From a virus (Duplodnaviria > Heunggongvirae > Uroviricota > Caudoviricetes): a stretch of 5,573 bases of DNA. The stretch lies in the IMG/VR virus record IMGVR_UViG_3300014970_000026. One strand, 5' to 3'. A program made the translations under genes and the position numbers. The notes beneath the pieces are model-generated. The model was given only the letters and a program-made list of their open reading frames with translations. It was not told the origin of the DNA and did not search any database. Numbering within the stretch: position 1 is the first letter of the stretch; the number at the start of each line of letters is the position of its first letter. Below, piece after piece: positions 1 through 5,573 of the stretch.

Positions 1-1074
1 CTGGACAAACTGACCGCTGCGTTTAAAGCCTCAGACGGGAAGACCGCCGAGCTGGTAAATATCATGCAGGACAACCTAGGCGGTGACTTTAAAGAGTTTC
101 AGTCCGCTTATGAGGCGGTGGGGACTGACCTGTTTGACCAGCAGGAAGGCGCGCTGCGTAAGCTCACGCAGACGGCCACAAAGTATGTGTTAAAACTCGA
201 TGGCTGGATCCAGAAAAACAAATCACTGGCGTCAACCATCGGCATCATTGCCGGTGGCGCGCTGGCGCTGACTGGCATCATCGGTGCAATTGGTCTTGTA
301 ACCTGGCCGGTTATCACCGGCATCAATGCCATCATCGCGGCAGCAGGCGCAATGGGGGCAGTCTTCACGACGGTTGGCAGTGCTGTTATGACCGCCATCG
401 GGGCTATTAGCTGGCCGGTTGTGGCCGTGGTGGCCGCCATTGTCGCCGGGGCGTTGCTTATCCGTAAATACTGGGAGCCTGTCAGCGCATTCTTTGGCGG
501 TGTGGTGAAAGGGCTGAAAGCGGCATTTGCGCCGGTGGGGGAGCTGTTCATGCCACTGAAACCGGTGTTTGACTGGCTGGGCGAAAAGTTACAGGCCGCG
601 TGGCAGTGGTTTAAAAACCTGATTGCCCCCGTCAAAGCCACCCAGGACACCCTGAACCGTTGTCGTGACACGGGTGTCATGTTCGGGCAGGCACTGGCTG
701 ACGCGTTGATGCTGCCGCTTAATGCGTTCAACAAACTGCGCAGCGGTATTGACTGGGTACTGGAAAAGCTCGGGGTCATCAACAAAGAGTCAGACACACT
801 TGACCAGACCGCCGCCAGAACTCATGCCGCCACGTATGGCACCGGTGGTTATATTCCGGCGACCAGCTCTTATGCAGGCTATCAGGCTTATCAGCCGGTC
901 ACGGCACCGGCTGGCCGCTCTTATGTGGACCAGAGTAAAAACGAATATCACATCAGCCTGACGGGTGGTACTGCGCCGGGGACACAGCTTGACCGCCAGT
1001 TACAGGATGCGCTCGAAAAATACGAGCGGGATAAACGTGCGCGCGCTCGTGCCAGCATGATGCATGACGGTTAA
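1..1074 (+). CDS. T: Phage tail tape measure protein (P2 gpT-like), C-terminal portion; 5' end lies outside the window
   Basis: Frame 1 is open from base 1 to the TAA at 1072-1074 (the ORF track only begins at the first Met, 64). It has a long Gly/Ala/Ile-rich hydrophobic segment typical of tape measure C-terminal regions, and sits immediately upstream of gpU and gpD as in P2. Confidence 0.85.
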   Translation: MDKLTAAFKASDGKTAELVNIMQDNLGGDFKEFQSAYEAVGTDLFDQQEGALRKLTQTATKYVLKLDGWIQKNKSLASTIGIIAGGALALTGIIGAIGLVTWPVITGINAIIAAAGAMGAVFTTVGSAVMTAIGAISWPVVAVVAAIVAGALLIRKYWEPVSAFFGGVVKGLKAAFAPVGELFMPLKPVFDWLGEKLQAAWQWFKNLIAPVKATQDTLNRCRDTGVMFGQALADALMLPLNAFNKLRSGIDWVLEKLGVINKESDTLDQTAARTHAATYGTGGYIPATSSYAGYQAYQPVTAPAGRSYVDQSKNEYHISLTGGTAPGTQLDRQLQDALEKYERDKRARARASMMHDG

Positions 1075-1088
1075 GGAGGTGACGAAAA

Positions 1089-1568
1089 ATGATGCTCGCG
1101 TTAGGTATGTTTGTTTTTATGCGCCAGACGCTGCCACACCAGACCATGCAGCGTGAATCAGATTATCGCTGGCCGTCAAATTCCCGTATCGGTAAACGGG
1201 AGGCCTACCAGTTTCTCGGTGTGGGTGAGGAAAACTTGACGCTGGCCGGTGTGCTTTATCCCGAACTGACCGGCGGAAAGCTGACGATGACCACGCTCAG
1301 GCTGATGGCAGAGGAAGGCCGGGCGTGGCCGTTGCTGGATGGCACAGGCATGATTTACGGCATGTATGTCATCAGCAGGGTGAGTGAAACAGGGAGTATT
1401 TTCTTTGCAGACGGCACACCCCGGAAAATTGATTTTACGCTGTCACTCACCCGCGTGGATGAATCACTGGCCGCGCTTTATGGCGATATCGGTAAACAGG
1501 CGGAGTCGCTCATCGGTAAGGCCGGTAGTCTGGCGACCAGATTCACAGGTATGATGGGGGCGGAATAA
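1089..1568 (+). CDS. U: Phage tail protein gpU (P2 tail completion/terminator protein U)
   Basis: 159-aa ORF. A strong SD (AGGAGGTGA) lies about 7 nt upstream of the ATG. Size and sequence match my recollection of P2 gpU. Its stop overlaps the gpD start (TAATG). Confidence 0.88.
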   Translation: MMLALGMFVFMRQTLPHQTMQRESDYRWPSNSRIGKREAYQFLGVGEENLTLAGVLYPELTGGKLTMTTLRLMAEEGRAWPLLDGTGMIYGMYVISRVSETGSIFFADGTPRKIDFTLSLTRVDESLAALYGDIGKQAESLIGKAGSLATRFTGMMGAE

Positions 1569-2731
1569 TGCTGGATGCGCTGACATTTGATGCAGGCAGT
1601 ACGCTGACGCCGGATTACATGCTGATGCTCGACAGCAGGGATATTACCGGCAATATCAGCGACCGTCTGATGAGCATGACCCTGACGGATAACCGGGGCT
1701 TTGAGGCTGATCAGCTTGATATTGAACTGAACGATGCCGACGGGCAGGTCGAACTGCCGGTTCGTGGCGCTGTTCTGACGGTGTATATCGGCTGGAAAGG
1801 TTTTGCCCTGGTATGCAAAGGGAAATTCACCGTTGATGAGGTAGAACACCGGGGCACGCCGGATGTGGTCGCCATCCGGGCCCGGAGTGCAGATTTTCGT
1901 GGCACGCTCAATTCCCGCCGTGAAGGCTCCTGGCATGACACCACGCTCGGTGCGATTGTTGAGGCGATAGCCTCCCGTAACAGGCTGGAAGCCAGTGTCG
2001 CTCCGTCACTGGCCGGAATTAAAATCCCGCACATCGACCAGTCGCAGGAGTCTGATGCAAAATTCCTGACCCGCCTTGCTGAACGCAACGGCGGTGAGGT
2101 GTCGGTAAAAATGGGAAAACTGTTGTTTCTCAAAGCGGGGCAGGGGGTGACGGCCAGCGGTAAAAAAATCCCGCAGATTACCATCACCCGCAGCGACGGC
2201 GACCGTCATCATTTTGCGATTGCTGACCGTGGAGCCTATACCGGCGTAACGGCAAAGTGGCTTCACACCAAAGACCCGAAGCCGCAAAAGCAGAAGGTAA
2301 AACTGAAACGCAAAAAGAAAGAAAAACACCTGCGCGCACTGGAGCACCCGAAAGCGAAACCAGTCACGCAGAAGAAAGCGCCAAAAGTACCGGAAGCGCG
2401 CGAAGGTGAATACATGGCCGGTGAGGCTGACAACGTTTTTGCCCTGACCACGGTATATGCCACGAAAGCACAGGCCATGCGTGCTGCTCAGGCGAAGTGG
2501 GATAAACTGCAACGGGGCGTTGCGGAGTTCTCCATCATCCTGGCTACCGGTCGTGCAGATATTTACACGGAAACACCGGTCAGAGTGTCAGGCTTTAAGC
2601 GCGTCATAGACGAGCAGGACTGGACAATCACTAAGGTGACACATTTTCTGAATAATAGCGGCTTCACGACGTCCTTAGAGCTTGAGGTCAGGCTTTCTGA
2701 TGTGGAGTACGAAACAGAAGATTATGAGTGA
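1568..2731 (+). CDS. D: Phage tail protein gpD (P2 gene D, late control/tail protein D)
   Basis: 387-aa ORF, the same length as P2 gpD. It contains the characteristic internal Lys/Pro-rich segment (KDPKPQKQKVKLKRKKKEKH...). Position between U and ogr is as in P2. Confidence 0.9.
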   Translation: MLDALTFDAGSTLTPDYMLMLDSRDITGNISDRLMSMTLTDNRGFEADQLDIELNDADGQVELPVRGAVLTVYIGWKGFALVCKGKFTVDEVEHRGTPDVVAIRARSADFRGTLNSRREGSWHDTTLGAIVEAIASRNRLEASVAPSLAGIKIPHIDQSQESDAKFLTRLAERNGGEVSVKMGKLLFLKAGQGVTASGKKIPQITITRSDGDRHHFAIADRGAYTGVTAKWLHTKDPKPQKQKVKLKRKKKEKHLRALEHPKAKPVTQKKAPKVPEAREGEYMAGEADNVFALTTVYATKAQAMRAAQAKWDKLQRGVAEFSIILATGRADIYTETPVRVSGFKRVIDEQDWTITKVTHFLNNSGFTTSLELEVRLSDVEYETEDYE

Positions 2732-2737
2732 TGTCTT

Positions 2738-2767
2738 TTGTTTATCTGTTTGTTTTATAAGGATAAT
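2738..2767 (+). promoter_or_regulatory. Candidate sigma70 promoter for ogr (-35 TTGTTT 2738-2743, -10 GATAAT 2762-2767)
   Basis: Hexamers read directly from the sequence with an 18-bp spacer in the 81-bp D-ogr intergenic region. P2 ogr is known to have its own promoter here. The exact hexamer assignment is inference. Confidence 0.35.
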
Positions 2768-2812
2768 TTAACTAAAATGGCACTATCAACAAAACCGGAA
2801 GAGGTGCTCGCG

Positions 2813-3031
2813 ATGTTTCATTGTCCTTTATGCCAGCATGCCGCACATGCGCGTACAAGCCGCTATATCACTGACACGACAAAAGAGCGTTATCATCAGT
2901 GCCAGAACGTGAATTGTAGTGCCACGTTCATCACTTATGAGTCGGTACAGCGATACATCGTGAAGCCGGGAGAAGTCCACGCCGTAAGGCCGCACCCGTT
3001 GCCGTCAGGGCAGCAAATTATGTGGATGTAA
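2813..3031 (+). CDS. ogr: Ogr, the P2 late-gene transcriptional activator (Cys4 zinc-finger protein, 72 aa)
   Basis: The translation from the ATG at 2813 (MFHCPLCQHAAHARTSRYITDTTKERYHQCQNVNCSATF...IMWM) shows the C-x2-C...C-x4-C zinc-binding motif and matches my memory of P2 Ogr. An SD (GGAAGAGGTG) precedes this ATG. The ORF-track start at 2738 is an in-frame upstream extension lacking an RBS. Confidence 0.93.
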   Translation: MFHCPLCQHAAHARTSRYITDTTKERYHQCQNVNCSATFITYESVQRYIVKPGEVHAVRPHPLPSGQQIMWM

Positions 3032-3042
3032 TTACAAACAGG

Positions 3043-3068
3043 AAGCCCCTCAGTCGAGGGGCTTTTTT
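3043..3068 (+). terminator. Rho-independent terminator downstream of ogr
   Basis: A 9-bp GC-rich stem (AAGCCCCTC / GAGGGGCTT) with a 4-nt loop is followed by T6 (3063-3068), 12 nt after the ogr stop. Confidence 0.8.
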
Positions 3069-3073
3069 GTCGA

Positions 3074-3092
3074 TGTGGTCAATGTGTGGACG
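3074..3092 (+). repeat. Direct repeats TGTGGTCA (3074-3081) and TGTGGACG (3085-3092), candidate P2 Int arm-type binding sites in the phage arm of attR
   Basis: Two 8-mers sharing TGTGG-CA/G, 11 bp apart (one helical turn), lying between ogr and the att core. My recollection of the P2 arm-site consensus is approximate. Confidence 0.4.
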
Positions 3093-3132
3093 TGACCAGA
3101 AATAAATCCTTTTATTTCATTGTATTACGCGT

Positions 3133-3159
3133 AAAAAATAAGCCCGTGTAAGGGAGATT
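3133..3159. repeat. P2-type attachment core (attR copy), AAAAAATAAGCCCGTGTAAGGGAGATT, coinciding with the 3' terminator of cyaR
   Basis: The 27-bp sequence matches the P2 att core as I remember it. It lies exactly at the transition from phage genes (ogr) to host genes (cyaR/yegQ). Confidence 0.6.
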
Positions 3160-3219
3160 ACACAGGCTAAGGAGGTGGTTCCTGGTACAGCTAGCATTTT
3201 ATGGGTTATGTTTTTCAGC
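3133..3219 (-). ncRNA. cyaR: CyaR (RyeE) Hfq-dependent small RNA
   Basis: The reverse complement of 3133-3219 reads GCUGAAAAACAUAACCCAUAAAAUGCUAGCUGUACCAGGAACCACCUCCUUAGCCUGUGUAAUCUCCCUUACACGGGCUUAUUUUUU, which matches the E. coli CyaR sequence as I recall it, including the terminator hairpin and U-tail. It lies between yegQ and ogr, as at the K-12 yegQ-cyaR-ogrK locus. Confidence 0.9.
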
Positions 3220-3226
3220 GAAACGG

Positions 3227-3303: not shown

Positions 3304-4665
3304 TCACTTACCGTGGGGATTACGCGTGGTTTCCCCGGAGAAATTACGCATCAGCAGAGCGTAATTTAGCTCAAGATCCTGCGGGACCGGGAGCCACACA
3401 GTATAACCATCGCCTGGTGCGACCGGCATCGCTTCACCTTTGGCGTTTTCCATGTGCTCAAGGGTAAAGTTAATGTTGCCTTGCGGCGTCATCAGCTCAA
3501 GGCTGTCGCCAACGGAGAATTTATTTTTCACCGCTACCGCCGCGAGGTCCCCCTTGCGCTCACCGGTAAACTCACCAACAAACTGCTGGCGGTCAGAAAC
3601 TGAATAACCGTATTCGTAGTTCTGATAATCGTCGTGAGTATGACGACGCAGGAAACCTTCGGTATAGCCACGATGCGCCAGACCTTCCAGAGTTTCCAGC
3701 AGGCTGGTATCGAACGGTTTTCCCGCAGCGGCGTCATCGATAGCTTTGCGGTAAACCTGTGCGGTGCGTGCACAATAGTAGAAAGATTTGGTACGACCTT
3801 CGATTTTCAGCGAATGCACGCCCATTTTGGTCAGGCGTTCTACATGGGCGATGGCGCGCAGATCTTTCGAGTTCATGATGTAAGTGCCGTGCTCATCTTC
3901 AAACGCGGTCATATACTCGCCCGGACGCTGGGCCTCTTCGATCATAAACACTTTGTCGGTTGGTGCGCCGATACCCAGCGTCGGCTCAACATTTTGCACC
4001 GGAATCGGCTCGTACTTGTGTACGATGTTGCCAACATCATCTTCTTTCCCTTCCTGGACGTTGTACTCCCAGCGGCAGGCGTTGGTGCAGGTGCCCTGGT
4101 TCGGGTCGCGCTTGTTGATATAGCCAGAGAGCAGGCAGCGACCGGAGTAGGCCATGCACAGCGCGCCGTGAACGAAGATCTCGATCTCCATATCCGGCAC
4201 CTGATTGCGGATCTCTTCAATCTCTTCCAGCGACAGCTCGCGAGAGAGGATCACGCGGGTCAGGCCCATTTGCTGCCAGAATTTCACCGTCGCCCAGTTT
4301 ACGGCGTTAGCCTGCACCGAGAGGTGGATCGGCATTTCAGGGAAGTGCTCGCGCACCAGCATAATCAGCCCCGGATCGGACATAATCAGCGCATCCGGCC
4401 CCATTTCCACCACCGGTTTCAGGTCACGGATAAAGGTTTTCAGCTTGGCGTTGTGCGGTGCAATGTTGACCACGACATAAAACTTTTTCCCCAGCGCGTG
4501 GGCTTCATTGATGCCGAGCTGAAGATTTTCGTGGTTGAATTCGTTGTTGCGCACACGCAGGGAATAACGCGGCTGGCCCGCATAAACAGCATCTGCGCCA
4601 TAAGCGAAAGCGTAACGCATATTTTTCAGCGTTCCCGCCGGGGAAAGGAGTTCCGGTTTAAACAT
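3304..4665 (-). CDS. yegQ: YegQ/RlhA, U32-family peptidase-like protein (23S rRNA C2501 hydroxylation factor)
   Basis: 453-aa ORF whose translation (MFKPELLSPAGTLKNMRYAFAYGADAVYAGQPRYSLRVRNNEF...) matches my recollection of E. coli YegQ in sequence and length. It is adjacent to cyaR as in E. coli. Confidence 0.93.
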   Translation of the reverse strand: MFKPELLSPAGTLKNMRYAFAYGADAVYAGQPRYSLRVRNNEFNHENLQLGINEAHALGKKFYVVVNIAPHNAKLKTFIRDLKPVVEMGPDALIMSDPGLIMLVREHFPEMPIHLSVQANAVNWATVKFWQQMGLTRVILSRELSLEEIEEIRNQVPDMEIEIFVHGALCMAYSGRCLLSGYINKRDPNQGTCTNACRWEYNVQEGKEDDVGNIVHKYEPIPVQNVEPTLGIGAPTDKVFMIEEAQRPGEYMTAFEDEHGTYIMNSKDLRAIAHVERLTKMGVHSLKIEGRTKSFYYCARTAQVYRKAIDDAAAGKPFDTSLLETLEGLAHRGYTEGFLRRHTHDDYQNYEYGYSVSDRQQFVGEFTGERKGDLAAVAVKNKFSVGDSLELMTPQGNINFTLEHMENAKGEAMPVAPGDGYTVWLPVPQDLELNYALLMRNFSGETTRNPHGK

Positions 4666-4767
4666 AATTCTCTCGTTCTGATGACAGGTCAGATCCGCTT
4701 CACCTGATGAAGCGGTTAGGGGAGTGCCCCCACTTTAAGGGCGGGCATTGTAGCGCAATCGGCGGGT

Positions 4768-5064
4768 TTAGCTCCAGTGTAAATGTCTGGTGGCGTCCTG
4801 GTTTTGGTTAAGGATACGAATGACGATAATTTCCCCTGGTGATTGCAGGAAATAAATTACGTGGCGTTCAAAAGGAAGAACAAAAATACCTTCGCCTAAT
4901 TCAGGTCTGGGCGTACCTATATTATTGTTACTCAGAATCTGGAGAACGTCTGAAAGATGTTCCACATATCTGTCGGCTTGTGGTTCGCCGAAATGGTGAT
5001 AACTGTAATACCAGATGCCTTCTAAATCTTCATTGGCTTTTGGCATGAGTTTAATAATACGCAC
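4768..5064 (-). CDS. parE: ParE/RelE-family type II toxin
   Basis: 98-aa ORF from a GTG at 5064 (an in-frame ATG at 5046 would give 92 aa). The N-terminus aligns with ParE toxins (IKL...A.EDLEGIWYY) and the C-terminus carries the ParE-type VIRILNQNQD motif. It lies 1 nt downstream of the antitoxin stop. Confidence 0.78.
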   Translation of the reverse strand: MRIIKLMPKANEDLEGIWYYSYHHFGEPQADRYVEHLSDVLQILSNNNIGTPRPELGEGIFVLPFERHVIYFLQSPGEIIVIRILNQNQDATRHLHWS

Positions 5065-5065
5065 A

Positions 5066-5317
5066 TTATTTCCTTATCCCTGCTTTCACCTTCCGCAAAA
5101 ACGCGTCCTTTTCCCACGGCTGAGCTTCACCACTACTCAACCCTTCTGCAAGCATGTCACGTAATGCTTGCAGGCGAGACTCTGCTTGCTTTTCTCGAAG
5201 TAAGCGCAGTGACTCACGGATCACTTCGCTTTGGGTGCGATAGTCGCCGGATTCAATTAAGGACTCGATAAATTCACGCAACTCATCGCCGAGATCAACC
5301 GTCATCGTTCTGGCCAT
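5066..5317 (-). CDS. parD: ParD-family (COG3609, ribbon-helix-helix) type II antitoxin
   Basis: 83-aa ORF with an SD (AGGAGAG) 7 nt upstream of the ATG. The translation (…GDYRTQSEVIRESLRLLREKQAESRLQALRDMLAEGLSSGEAQPWEKDAFLRK…) closely follows the ParD antitoxin pattern. It sits upstream of and abuts the ParE-like gene. Confidence 0.78.
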   Translation of the reverse strand: MARTMTVDLGDELREFIESLIESGDYRTQSEVIRESLRLLREKQAESRLQALRDMLAEGLSSGEAQPWEKDAFLRKVKAGIRK

Positions 5318-5330
5318 GTTTATGCTCTCC

Positions 5331-5349
5331 TGTAAGTAAAAATCTTACA
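5331..5349. promoter_or_regulatory. Perfect inverted repeat TGTAAG-N7-CTTACA, candidate ParD operator overlapping the parDE promoter
   Basis: 6-bp perfect inverted repeat with a 7-bp A-rich spacer, 14-32 bp upstream of the parD start codon. Candidate hexamers on the minus strand are -35 GTGACG and -10 TACACT with a 17-bp spacer, just upstream of it. Confidence 0.4.
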
Positions 5350-5573
5350 TCAGTGTATGTCATAAACCGGATAGCGTCACGAAAAGTATTAGAAGATATT
5401 TTGGCAGATGAACATGTTCAGGAGGATAAGCATGGAGATGTTAAACAAAGAAAGCACAATGAGTATTCATCAGTGTCCACTATTTTAATGGCGCAGGTGG
5501 TAATGACTCCAACTTATTGATAGTGTTTTATGTTCAGATAATGCCCGATGACTTTGTCATGCAGCTCCACCGA

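What the first reader, a model, noticed from the sequence alone, without database searches (positions are those of the whole stretch)
4768..5317. AT-rich parDE-like toxin-antitoxin islet inserted beside yegQ and the P2 attachment locus
Two tightly coupled small genes (antitoxin first, 1-nt gap) encode a ParD-family RHH antitoxin and a ParE/RelE-family toxin. The segment is visibly more AT-rich than yegQ and the phage genes. As far as I recall, the E. coli K-12 baeR-yegP-yegQ-cyaR arrangement has no TA pair upstream of yegQ, so this looks like a strain-specific accessory insertion. Chromosomal TA modules near prophage integration hotspots can act in abortive infection or stabilise the region. 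The family is well known, so the novelty would lie in location and function, not in the proteins.
Basis: partly seen in the sequence, partly recalled or inferred. Interest (0 to 1): 0.55.

Follow-up and report, generated by a model that had tools for sequence, protein, structure and literature searches.

The report
Old chromosomal ParDE toxin-antitoxin pair
This is an ordinary, already annotated ParD/ParE toxin-antitoxin gene pair found at the same chromosomal spot in about a third of E. coli genomes; it is an old resident that many lineages (including K-12) have lost or overwritten, not a strain-specific insertion.

Summary
parD (5317..5066, 83 aa) and parE (5064..4768, 98 aa, GTG start) lie on the minus strand 1 nt apart. 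Both clear curated HMM cut-offs, and the toxin model has a ParE-type rather than RelE-type fold. The ~0.74-kb segment has 43.5% GC against 54% in yegQ. K-12 lacks it.

The "strain-specific insertion" reading does not hold. The pair is in 1844 of 5426 complete E. coli genomes, always single-copy, chromosomal and at the same yegQ junction. It is also syntenic in E. whittamii, E. ruysiae (pseudogenised) and Pseudocitrobacter. A 5.2-kb alternative island at the same site (305 genomes, including Nissle 1917) still carries both ends of the parDE islet, including the last 19 nt of parE, so parDE was there first.

The coding sequences are under purifying selection (8 synonymous, 0 non-synonymous differences between the two E. 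coli alleles).

The RefSeq label "frameshifted" for this parD allele is an annotation artefact. The 83-aa ORF with its AGGAG site is the ancestral form.

The window ends in an IS1 (from 5499) that deleted the 3' end of yegP.

There is no evidence for phage defence. Gyrase poisoning is inferred from more distant relatives. Known family, low interest.

The parts
5066..5317 (-). parD, 83-aa ribbon-helix-helix antitoxin (ATG 5317, stop 5068-5066)
   Evidence: PF03693 E 4.3e-19; TIGR02606 88.4 bits. About 61% identical (my count from the HMMER midline) to PrpA of 7YCS over 77 residues, E 1.9e-27. The same 83-aa ORF is called in Pseudocitrobacter.
4768..5064 (-). parE, 98-aa ParE-type toxin (GTG 5064, stop 4770-4768)
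   Evidence: PF05016 E 1.8e-13. PDB sequence hits are only ParE toxins: 7YCS, 8C24, 3KXE, 7R5A, 6X0A. AF2 model pLDDT 90.3; top 23 Foldseek hits are ParE-type toxins, TMq 0.65-0.86.
5327..5331 (-). AGGAG ribosome-binding site, 9 nt before the parD ATG
   Evidence: Read directly from the sequence. The leader is shared with E. whittamii and E. ruysiae and is replaced in the common E. coli allele (alignment A1).
5332..5348 (-). Inverted repeat GTAAG-N7-CTTAC, candidate ParD operator
   Evidence: (I3). Nearly invariant from E. coli to Pseudocitrobacter while the sequence further upstream is not alignable. Binding by ParD is inferred, not shown.
5352..5380 (-). Candidate promoter GTGACG(-35)-17 nt-TACACT(-10)
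   Evidence: 8 of 12 consensus matches, below the scanner's threshold, but both hexamers are conserved in all six taxa in A1. Inferred.
5409..5420 (.). Perfect 12-bp palindrome TGAACATGTTCA upstream of the candidate promoter
   Evidence: Conserved within Escherichia, absent from the Pseudocitrobacter alignment. Function unknown.
4757..5498 (.). The part of the parDE islet held in the window (DNA absent from K-12); the full islet is about 780 bp in intact carriers
   Evidence: Three-way alignment of K-12, an intact carrier and the window. The junction at 4756/4757 is present in all 1844 carriers.
4757..4786 (.). Islet end (11 nt after parE plus its last 19 nt including the stop) that survives as a relic in the alternative 5.2-kb island allele
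   Evidence: Boundary comparison with ATCC 25922.
5499..5573 (.). Terminal 75 bp of an IS1 (IS1A family); transposase genes read toward parDE
   Evidence: Annotated in the 100%-identical E308 locus. 768-bp element, no target duplication, 203-bp adjacent deletion of spacer plus yegP 3' end. The same junction is in 9 genomes.
3304..4665 (-). yegQ/trhP, the core gene 102 nt downstream of parE (context)
   Evidence: NCBIfam NF011996, 876 bits.
3133..3221 (-). cyaR sRNA (3136-3221) overlapping the P2 att core (3133-3159): attR of the adjacent P2-like prophage (context)
   Evidence: Rfam RF00112, 100.7 bits; att core 27/27.

Best explanation
This is a canonical chromosomal type II ParD/ParE toxin-antitoxin operon of the ParE/PF03693 subfamily. 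It lies in an old, about 0.78-kb islet between yegP and yegQ (trhP). Proposed mechanism: parD and parE are transcribed together from a weak promoter at about 5352-5380 and are translationally coupled (stop, 1 nt, GTG). ParD dimerises through its N-terminal ribbon-helix-helix domain, wraps its C-terminal region around ParE to form a ParE:ParD2:ParE complex, and represses its own promoter at the GTAAG-N7-CTTAC repeat. If ParD falls (proteolysis, loss of expression), free ParE most likely poisons DNA gyrase, causing DNA damage, SOS induction and growth arrest. In evolutionary terms the pair is ancestral at this locus for E. coli and its sister Escherichia lineages. It has since been deleted (K-12 type, 59% of genomes), overwritten by other cargo (6%) or pseudogenised (E. 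ruysiae). In this strain an IS1 landed 181 bp upstream of the parD ATG and left the operon and its conserved control region intact.

Shown: gene anatomy, family and fold, distribution, synteny, relics, purifying selection, conserved leader.

Inferred: toxicity, gyrase as target, autoregulation, protease control.
For: Family and fold. All 23 best structural matches are ParE-type toxins; RelE, YoeB and YafQ follow with TMq of about 0.5-0.66.

Operon anatomy and coupling: conserved in E. whittamii and Pseudocitrobacter.

Purifying selection: 8 synonymous and 0 non-synonymous differences between the two E. coli alleles. E. coli vs E. whittamii dN/dS is 0.02 for parD and 0.10 for parE.

Conserved control block upstream of the ATG.

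Distribution: 1844 of 5426 genomes, single copy, all chromosomal, same junction.

Antiquity: same site in E. whittamii and E. ruysiae. baeR-parD-parE-yegQ synteny with an 80%-identical ParE in Pseudocitrobacter.

parDE came first: the 5.2-kb alternative island keeps about 65 nt of the islet's yegP-side end and the last 19 nt of parE.

Mechanism of relatives: PrpT:PrpA2:PrpT heterotetramer and promoter binding (PMC9731233, PMC7848731). Gyrase as the target of VcParE2 (bioRxiv 10.1101/2025.07.24.666505). ParE as a gyrase inhibitor in general (review statements in PMC6614396).
Against: Nothing functional is shown for this pair. No paper on it was found.

The target of the closest characterised relative, PrpT, is not reported: 'gyrase' occurs zero times in both PrpT papers.

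Two residues that matter for VcParE2 toxicity differ here: Trp25 is F25, and His88 is N86. That His is conserved in all five solved ParEs that matched by sequence. N or S at that position is shared by the whole enterobacterial clade, including plasmid copies.

The candidate promoter scores only 8 of 12 and was not called by the scanner.

Synonymous divergence of parDE between E. coli and E. whittamii (about 0.2) is lower than that of yegQ (0.39) and baeR (0.52). Some later exchange between lineages, rather than purely vertical descent, is therefore possible.

The outgroups E. albertii, E. fergusonii and E. marmotae gave no hit among the species representatives, so the point of first acquisition is not fixed.
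Confidence: 0.8

Rival explanations
1. One reading: a recently acquired, strain-specific accessory insertion beside the P2 attachment site that acts in abortive infection or stabilises the region.
For: Lower GC than the flanks. Absent from K-12. The site is a variable spot with at least three alleles. TA modules in general can act in phage defence (general knowledge).
Against: Present in 34% of genomes at one identical junction. Syntenic in other Escherichia species and in Pseudocitrobacter. Relics of it lie inside the alternative island. No mobility gene and no flanking direct repeats. No PADLOC model hit. Almost no phage-borne relatives: 2 weak hits in 50,697 phage records. A P2-like prophage is integrated 1.6 kb away in this window, so the pair did not prevent P2 lysogeny. 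Repeated loss, replacement and pseudogenisation argue against strong stabilisation.
Confidence: 0.08
2. An attenuated or non-toxic pair kept mainly for the DNA-binding antitoxin. ParE would be weakly toxic or harmless, as reported for P. aeruginosa ParE1, and ParD would serve as a transcription factor for its own or other promoters, as PrpA does at plasmid iterons.
For: F25 and N86 replace residues that matter in VcParE2. ParD is much better conserved than ParE: 61% vs about 33% identity to PrpA and PrpT, and dN/dS 0.02 vs 0.10. The pair is lost easily. PrpA has a second regulatory role (PMC7848731). A non-toxic PaParE1 is mentioned in bioRxiv 10.1101/2025.07.24.666505.
Against: parE itself shows no non-synonymous change between E. 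coli alleles and a dN/dS of 0.10 to E. whittamii, which is unexpected for a useless gene. N or S at position 86 is also found in the plasmid copies, which presumably work as addiction modules. PrpT natively has Phe at the Trp25 position.
Confidence: 0.12
3. The toxin is a RelE-like ribosome-dependent mRNA endonuclease rather than a ParE-type gyrase poison (PF05016 covers both).
For: PF05016 is a superfamily model. RefSeq names the protein 'RelE/ParE family toxin'.
Against: All sequence hits in the PDB are ParE proteins. Structural matches to ParE have TMq 0.65-0.86, against about 0.5-0.66 for RelE, YoeB and YafQ. The model has the long N-terminal alpha-hairpin (H7-24, H26-45) typical of ParE. 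The partner is a ParD, not a RelB-type antitoxin.
Confidence: 0.03

Closest known systems
PrpT/PrpA of Pseudoalteromonas rubra plasmid pMBL6842 (PDB 7YCS/7YCU/7YCV; PMC7848731, PMC9731233)
   Same: Best match for both proteins. ParD vs PrpA: E 1.9e-27, about 61% identity. ParE vs PrpT: E 2.3e-12, TMq 0.86, rmsd 1.0. Same ParE/PF03693 pairing, antitoxin first, RHH antitoxin that represses its own promoter.
   Different: PrpTA is plasmid-borne, and PrpA also binds ori iterons to control copy number. Here there is no replicon. The PrpA motif TTTG(T/A)AAT was not seen by eye in the leader. The toxin is only about a third identical.
Enterobacterial plasmid ParD/ParE pairs (Salmonella, Klebsiella and E. 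coli plasmids, the E. coli example IncF)
   Same: Closest mobile relatives: ParE 64-66% identical, same gene order, same N/S at position 86. 541 plasmid places in E. coli genomes at 60-80% DNA identity.
   Different: They are on plasmids, mostly predicted conjugative, and in the one E. coli plasmid inspected lie about 1.4 kb from a RepB gene. They are too diverged to be a recent source of the chromosomal copy.
Vibrio cholerae ParD2/ParE2, Caulobacter ParD1/ParE1, M. tuberculosis ParD1/ParE1 (7R5A, 3KXE, 8C24)
   Same: Same fold and complex type, TMq 0.83-0.86. They are the basis for the gyrase-poison inference. Y33 and H68 here match VcParE2 Tyr33 and His69.
   Different: 26-31% identity. VcParE2 Trp25 and His88 are F25 and N86 here.
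RK2/RP4 ParDE
   Same: The founding ParE gyrase poison with an RHH antitoxin, used for plasmid stabilisation.
   Different: According to PMC7848731, RK2 ParD belongs to a different antitoxin family (PF09386, not PF03693). Not compared directly here.
ParDE-I (YacA/YacB type) of IncI/IncF plasmids (PMC6614396) and PaaA2-ParE2 of E. coli O157
   Same: Other ParE-superfamily systems found in E. coli.
   Different: The ParDE-I antitoxin is COG3905, only 11-21% identical to ParD proteins. PaaA2-ParE2 matches at 16-17% identity, TMq 0.74-0.76, and has a different antitoxin.

Membership tests
ParD antitoxin (Pfam PF03693 / TIGR02606) | Profile match above the curated cut-off over the whole domain | tested here: met
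   PF03693 69.2 bits (cut-off 21), residues 1-78. TIGR02606 88.4 bits (cut-off 46.2).
ParD antitoxin (Pfam PF03693 / TIGR02606) | N-terminal ribbon-helix-helix DNA-binding domain | tested here: met
   Residues 2-53 align to the solved RHH domain of PrpA (7YCV), E 8e-18. The generic RHH_1 model scores 18.6 bits, just below its cut-off of 20.5.
ParD antitoxin (Pfam PF03693 / TIGR02606) | Encoded directly upstream of, and co-oriented with, a ParE toxin | tested here: met
   1-nt gap, same strand.
ParD antitoxin (Pfam PF03693 / TIGR02606) | Neutralises its toxin and represses its own promoter | not testable with these tools
   Only a conserved inverted repeat at 5332-5348 was found.
ParE toxin (ParE branch of the RelE/ParE superfamily, PF05016) | Profile match above the curated cut-off | tested here: met
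   51.3 bits (cut-off 23), residues 4-90 of 98.
ParE toxin (ParE branch of the RelE/ParE superfamily, PF05016) | ParE-type fold: N-terminal alpha-hairpin packed on a beta-sheet, closer to ParE than to RelE/YoeB/YafQ | tested here: met
   AF2 pLDDT 90.3, H7-24 and H26-45 plus three long strands. The top 23 PDB matches are ParE-type toxins; the RelE type starts at rank 24 with TMq 0.61 or lower among significant hits.
ParE toxin (ParE branch of the RelE/ParE superfamily, PF05016) | Residues implicated in gyrase-directed toxicity of VcParE2 (Phe20, Trp25, Tyr33, His69, His88) | tested here: inconclusive
   The counterparts here are Y20, F25, Y33, H68 and N86. The source paper itself says Trp25 is poorly conserved in the family. 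N or S at 86 is clade-wide.
ParE toxin (ParE branch of the RelE/ParE superfamily, PF05016) | Inhibits or poisons DNA gyrase; toxic when expressed alone | not testable with these tools
Known anti-phage defence system (PADLOC catalogue) | Match to a defence-system protein model | tested here: not met
   No PADLOC hit for ParD or ParE at E 0.01 or better, and none for the four proteins of the alternative island.
Recently inserted mobile islet | Narrow, strain-level distribution | tested here: not met
   1844 of 5426 genomes plus three other taxa at the same site.
Recently inserted mobile islet | Mobility genes or flanking direct repeats | tested here: not met
   No integrase or transposase belongs to the islet, and no direct repeats were found. 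The IS1 at 5499 is a later event shared by only 9 genomes.
PrpTA-type plasmid copy-number controller | Located on a plasmid (PrpA binds the iterons of the plasmid ori) | tested here: not met
   All 1844 copies are chromosomal, flanked by yegP and yegQ.

The most novel reading that the evidence does not exclude
Because parDE sits 102 nt upstream of trhP (yegQ) on the same strand, with no intrinsic terminator detected between them, the autoregulated parDE promoter, or ParD itself acting on a second target as PrpA does, could modulate expression of the tRNA U34 hydroxylase TrhP. That would link the toxin-antitoxin state to tRNA wobble modification in the third of E. coli strains that carry the islet. 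Separately, the conserved islet ends could serve as homology arms for cargo swapping at this site.
Probability: 0.06. Interest if true: 0.5.

Novelty: already known. Interest (0 to 1): 0.15.

Why it matters
It matters little beyond bookkeeping. The family is textbook, and RefSeq already names both proteins in 1844 complete genomes. Three modest points are useful.

1. The direction of evolution is the reverse of what the K-12-centred view suggests. K-12 is the deleted state of an old locus.

2. The yegP-yegQ spacer is a compact three-allele variable site. The relics there let one order the events: parDE first, the 4-gene island later.

3. RefSeq marks the ancestral parD allele as a frameshifted pseudogene because its reference protein starts at an upstream ATG that is in frame only in the derived allele. 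TA surveys that drop pseudogenes would wrongly score such strains as carrying an orphan toxin.

Since ParE toxins target gyrase, the pair could be relevant to quinolone tolerance. PMC10575684 reports that gains of ParDE-family TAs precede gyrA mutations, but nothing ties that result to this particular locus.

Tried and rejected
(1) P2 co-occurrence. I tried to compare P2-prophage occupancy between carriers and non-carriers using coverage counts: 707 genomes cover at least 80% of the window, and 1585 have the gpD-ogr-attR-cyaR junction. I reject that comparison. A non-carrier with the prophage already covers 85% of the window, so the 707 are not all carriers. No query design with an 80% threshold separates full prophage, K-12-type remnant and islet. 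All that can be said is that both coexist in this window and in the 15 best-matching genomes listed.

(2) A divergent chromosomal allele in the roughly 366 genomes with a split spacer but no parDE. Rejected: the sensitive blastn added only plasmid copies. The explanation is the 4-gene island.

(3) ParDE-I of IncI/IncF plasmids as the closest characterised relative. Rejected: its antitoxin is COG3905, 11-21% identical to ParD proteins.

(4) N86 as a sign of attenuation of the chromosomal copy. Rejected as specific to it: plasmid relatives share N or S at that position.

(5) The parD 'frameshift' of RefSeq. Rejected as a real defect.

(6) The K-12 15-nt spacer remnant (CCAGAGCCCCCCACA) as a relic of the parE end. 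It is similar, but too short to be conclusive.

(7) The strict promoter scan found nothing on the coding strand. The promoter proposed here rests on conservation only.

(8) Literature searches by locus, accession and gene names found no study of this pair.

(9) The Shigella flexneri SFBU0723 and E. coli ECMA0423 loci are full of indels in every gene. I took them for error-prone assemblies and did not use them for inference.

Full report
**1. The observation**

- parD is 5317..5066: 83 aa, ATG start, TAA stop at 5068-5066.
- parE is 5064..4768: 98 aa, GTG start.
- A single base (5065) lies between them.

ParD matches Pfam ParD_antitoxin PF03693 (E 4.3e-19, 69.2 bits, cut-off 21) and NCBIfam TIGR02606 (88.4 bits, cut-off 46.2). 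ParE matches PF05016 (E 1.8e-13, 51.3 bits, cut-off 23).

The segment is AT-rich. It has 43.5% GC over 4757-5498 (parE 41.4%, leader 37.0%), against 54.3% for yegQ and 55.4% for the phage genes.

- the right end of a P2-like prophage: tape-measure C-terminus, gpU, gpD, ogr;
- a perfect 27-nt P2 att core at 3133-3159, overlapping the 3' end of cyaR (Rfam 100.7 bits);
- then yegQ/trhP (NF011996, 876 bits).

**2. What the proteins are**

In the PDB, ParE matches only ParE toxins by sequence: PrpT 7YCS (E 2.3e-12), M. tuberculosis ParE1 8C24, Caulobacter ParE1 3KXE, V. cholerae ParE2 7R5A and Mesorhizobium 6X0A.

An AlphaFold model built on 12 homologues is confident (pLDDT 90.3, pTM 0.81). It shows the long N-terminal alpha-hairpin (H7-24, H26-45) on a three-stranded sheet.

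Foldseek places 23 ParE-type chains first (TMq 0.65-0.86). RelE, YoeB and YafQ come after, at about 0.5-0.66. The toxin therefore belongs to the ParE branch, not the RelE branch, of the superfamily.

ParD is about 61% identical (my count from the alignment midline) over 77 residues to PrpA of Pseudoalteromonas rubra (E 1.9e-27). The identity of 7YCS was confirmed from PMC13048266.

PrpTA forms a PrpT:PrpA2:PrpT heterotetramer and represses its own promoter (PMC9731233). PrpA also binds plasmid iterons (PMC7848731).

Neither PrpT paper mentions gyrase. The gyrase-poison mechanism is therefore an inference from more distant relatives: VcParE2 in bioRxiv 10.1101/2025.07.24.666505, and the general statement in PMC6614396.

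Five residues were reported to contribute to VcParE2 toxicity. Their counterparts here are Y20 (Phe20), F25 (Trp25), Y33 (Tyr33), H68 (His69) and N86 (His88).
- The His is present in all five solved ParEs that matched.
- N or S at that position is shared by the whole enterobacterial clade, including plasmid copies.
- So it is a subfamily trait and not evidence of decay.

**3. Distribution and the 'insertion' claim**

However, the pair is far from strain-specific.
- It is in 1844 of 5426 complete E. coli genomes, one copy each, never on a plasmid, at 95-100% identity. RefSeq already annotates it as a RelE/ParE toxin plus ParD antitoxin.
- A probe spanning the yegQ-side junction is fully covered in exactly those 1844 genomes. 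The location is therefore invariant.
- Carriers include ATCC 8739, O111:H8, O103:H2 and O55:H7 strains.
- The K-12-type empty spacer is in 3182 genomes, including O157:H7, a BL21 derivative and E2348/69.

A three-way alignment shows about 780 bp in carriers replacing about 20 bp in K-12. The extra DNA lies between the yegP terminator hairpin and the yegQ leader, and its left edge is at window position 4756/4757.

**4. A third allele, and the order of events**

About 366 genomes have a split spacer but no parDE. A sensitive blastn found no divergent chromosomal allele, only plasmid copies at 60-80% identity.

Instead, ATCC 25922, Nissle 1917 and others (305 genomes) carry a 5.2-kb, four-gene island between yegP and yegQ: a hypothetical protein plus DUF4034, DUF1266 and PcfJ-domain proteins. 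None of the four has a PADLOC hit.

That island retains both ends of the parDE islet:
- about 65 nt next to the yegP terminator;
- on the yegQ side, the sequence ACATTTACACTGGAGCTAA plus 11 more nt. This is the last 19 nt of parE with its stop codon, followed by the islet end.

The four-gene cargo therefore replaced the interior of a pre-existing parDE islet. parDE is the older state in that lineage.

**5. Beyond E. coli**

Results from species-representative genomes and metagenome contigs:
- E. whittamii and E. ruysiae carry the pair at the same yegP-yegQ position.
- In the E. ruysiae representative, parD has one in-frame stop and parE has two.
- Escherichia sp. E1V33 has lost parD and the 5' half of parE.
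- A ParE 80% identical to this one lies in baeR-parD(83 aa)-parE-yegQ-yegS synteny on contigs whose YegQ and BaeR proteins are exact matches to Pseudocitrobacter.

The association of this pair with yegQ therefore predates E. coli.

One caveat concerns synonymous divergence between E. coli and E. whittamii. It is lower for parDE (about 0.2) than for yegQ (0.39) or baeR (0.52). Later exchange by homologous recombination cannot be excluded.

No hit was obtained in the representatives of E. albertii, E. fergusonii or E. marmotae.

**6. Selection and the start codon**

The window allele (100 genomes at 99% identity or more) and the common allele (1744 genomes) differ by 8 synonymous and 0 non-synonymous substitutions across parDE. 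dN/dS against E. whittamii is 0.02 for parD and 0.10 for parE. Both genes are maintained by selection in E. coli.

In strain E308, which is 100% identical over the pair, RefSeq marks parD as 'frameshifted'. The upstream alignment (A1) explains this.
- The window's leader ACAGGAGAGCATAAAC-ATG, with its AGGAG site, is shared with E. whittamii and E. ruysiae (ACAAGAGAGCATAAAC-ATG) and is recognisable in Pseudocitrobacter.
- The common E. coli and Shigella allele has a 1-nt deletion plus substitutions (ACAGGCGGGCGTAAA-ATG).
- Those changes destroy the AGGAG and happen to put an upstream ATG in frame. That gives the 98-aa reference protein.

The 83-aa ORF covers the whole ParD model, and it is the ORF called in Pseudocitrobacter. 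The 'frameshift' is an annotation artefact, and the window's allele is the ancestral one.

**7. Control region**

The strict consensus scan finds no promoter on the coding strand. However, the 66 nt before the ATG are almost invariant from E. coli to Pseudocitrobacter, whereas sequence further upstream cannot be aligned.

This block contains:
- GTGACG-17 nt-TACACT (5380-5352), a weak sigma-70-like pair;
- the inverted repeat GTAAG-N7-CTTAC (5348-5332), directly before the ribosome-binding site.

I propose these as the promoter and the ParD operator. This is an inference.

A perfect palindrome, TGAACATGTTCA (5420-5409), is conserved within Escherichia only. No intrinsic terminator was found between parE and yegQ.

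**8. The IS1**

Window 5499-5573 is the end of an IS1. In E308 the element is 768 bp and has no target duplication. It is accompanied by a 203-bp deletion that removes 80 nt of spacer and the last 123 nt of yegP.

Its transposase genes read toward parDE. It lies 181 bp upstream of the parD ATG, outside the conserved block. Only 9 complete genomes share this junction.

**9. Function**

No model in PADLOC matches either protein. Phage genomes hold essentially no relatives.

The nearest mobile relatives are plasmid ParDE pairs with 64-66% identical toxins, in Salmonella, Klebsiella and E. coli plasmids, most of them predicted conjugative.

A P2-like prophage is integrated 1.6 kb away in this window, so the pair does not prevent P2 lysogeny here. 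My attempt to quantify co-occurrence failed for technical reasons (see Tried and rejected).

Repeated deletion, replacement and pseudogenisation argue against a strong region-stabilising effect. No publication on this pair was found.

A comparative study reports that gains of ParDE-family modules tend to precede quinolone-resistance mutations in E. coli (PMC10575684). Nothing links that result to this locus.

**10. Verdict**

This is a real, intact and selectively maintained ParD/ParE type II toxin-antitoxin operon of a well-known family, already named in public annotation.

The 'strain-specific insertion' reading is wrong in direction and scale. The defence role is unsupported.

Interest is low. 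The modest added value lies in three things: the ordering of events at a three-allele variable site, the correction of the pseudogene label, and the candidate operator.

Noticed in passing
In E308 it is 768 bp, has no target-site duplication, and is accompanied by a 203-bp deletion that removes the last 123 nt of yegP. Only 9 complete genomes share this junction, all of them IS1-rich (27 to 40 or more matching places per record, most of them IS1 ends).
   Followed up: yes
L018 16084-21410 (E. coli ATCC 25922); also L016, L017: An alternative 5.2-kb island with four genes (a 201-aa hypothetical protein plus DUF4034, DUF1266 and PcfJ-domain proteins) occupies the same yegP-yegQ site in 305 genomes, including Nissle 1917. 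It keeps both ends of the parDE islet. None of its proteins hits PADLOC, and its function is unknown.
   Followed up: partly
window 5318-5366; alignment A1: Most E. coli and Shigella carriers (about 1744 genomes) have a derived parD leader. A 1-nt deletion plus substitutions remove the AGGAG site and put an upstream ATG in frame, which is the source of the 98-aa RefSeq protein WP_001307279.1. RefSeq therefore labels the ancestral allele 'frameshifted'. Which start the derived allele uses, and whether the antitoxin level differs, is unknown.
   Followed up: partly
L008 3748-4297 (E. ruysiae); L013 about 3985-4128 (Escherichia sp. E1V33): There is decay of the pair in sister species. The E. ruysiae representative has one in-frame stop in parD and two in parE. 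E1V33 has lost parD and the 5' half of parE.
   Followed up: partly
parDE against yegQ and baeR, E. coli vs E. whittamii (L002, L007): Synonymous divergence of parDE (about 0.2) is about half that of the flanking yegQ (0.39) and baeR (0.52). This is unexpected for strictly vertical descent. It could reflect later recombinational exchange of the islet or small-sample noise (20 synonymous differences).
   Followed up: no
hits H88/H89 (O55:H7 CB9615, RM12579) against H171 (O157:H7 F7508): O55:H7 strains carry the parDE islet with the window-type leader, whereas an O157:H7 strain has the K-12-type empty spacer. From memory, this locus is a few tens of kb from the O-antigen cluster, which was replaced by recombination in the O55-to-O157 transition. 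That could explain the switch, but it was not checked.
   Followed up: no
window 1-3159: This is the right end of a P2-like prophage: tape-measure C-terminus 64-1074, gpU 1089-1568, gpD 1568-2731 (full length, unlike the K-12 yegZ fragment) and ogr (NCBIfam match starts at residue 26 of the listed ORF, so the start is probably the ATG at 2813). The attR core is at 3133-3159. A gpD-ogr-att-cyaR junction of this kind is present in 1585 of 5426 genomes.
   Followed up: partly
window 2101-2550: There is a strong AT skew (0.43-0.46) inside gpD, coinciding with a lysine-rich stretch (KPQKQKVKLKRKKKEKH...). It is probably just a low-complexity linker.
   Followed up: no
L004 3001-3289 (E. coli IncF plasmid p89_MLI108-3) and similar hits H105-H110: In several E. 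coli IncF plasmids the related parE matches in 2-3 pieces and has no annotated gene. In p89_MLI108-3, the one inspected, it lies next to an IS1 and about 1.4 kb from a RepB replication gene. These plasmid copies look disrupted.
   Followed up: no
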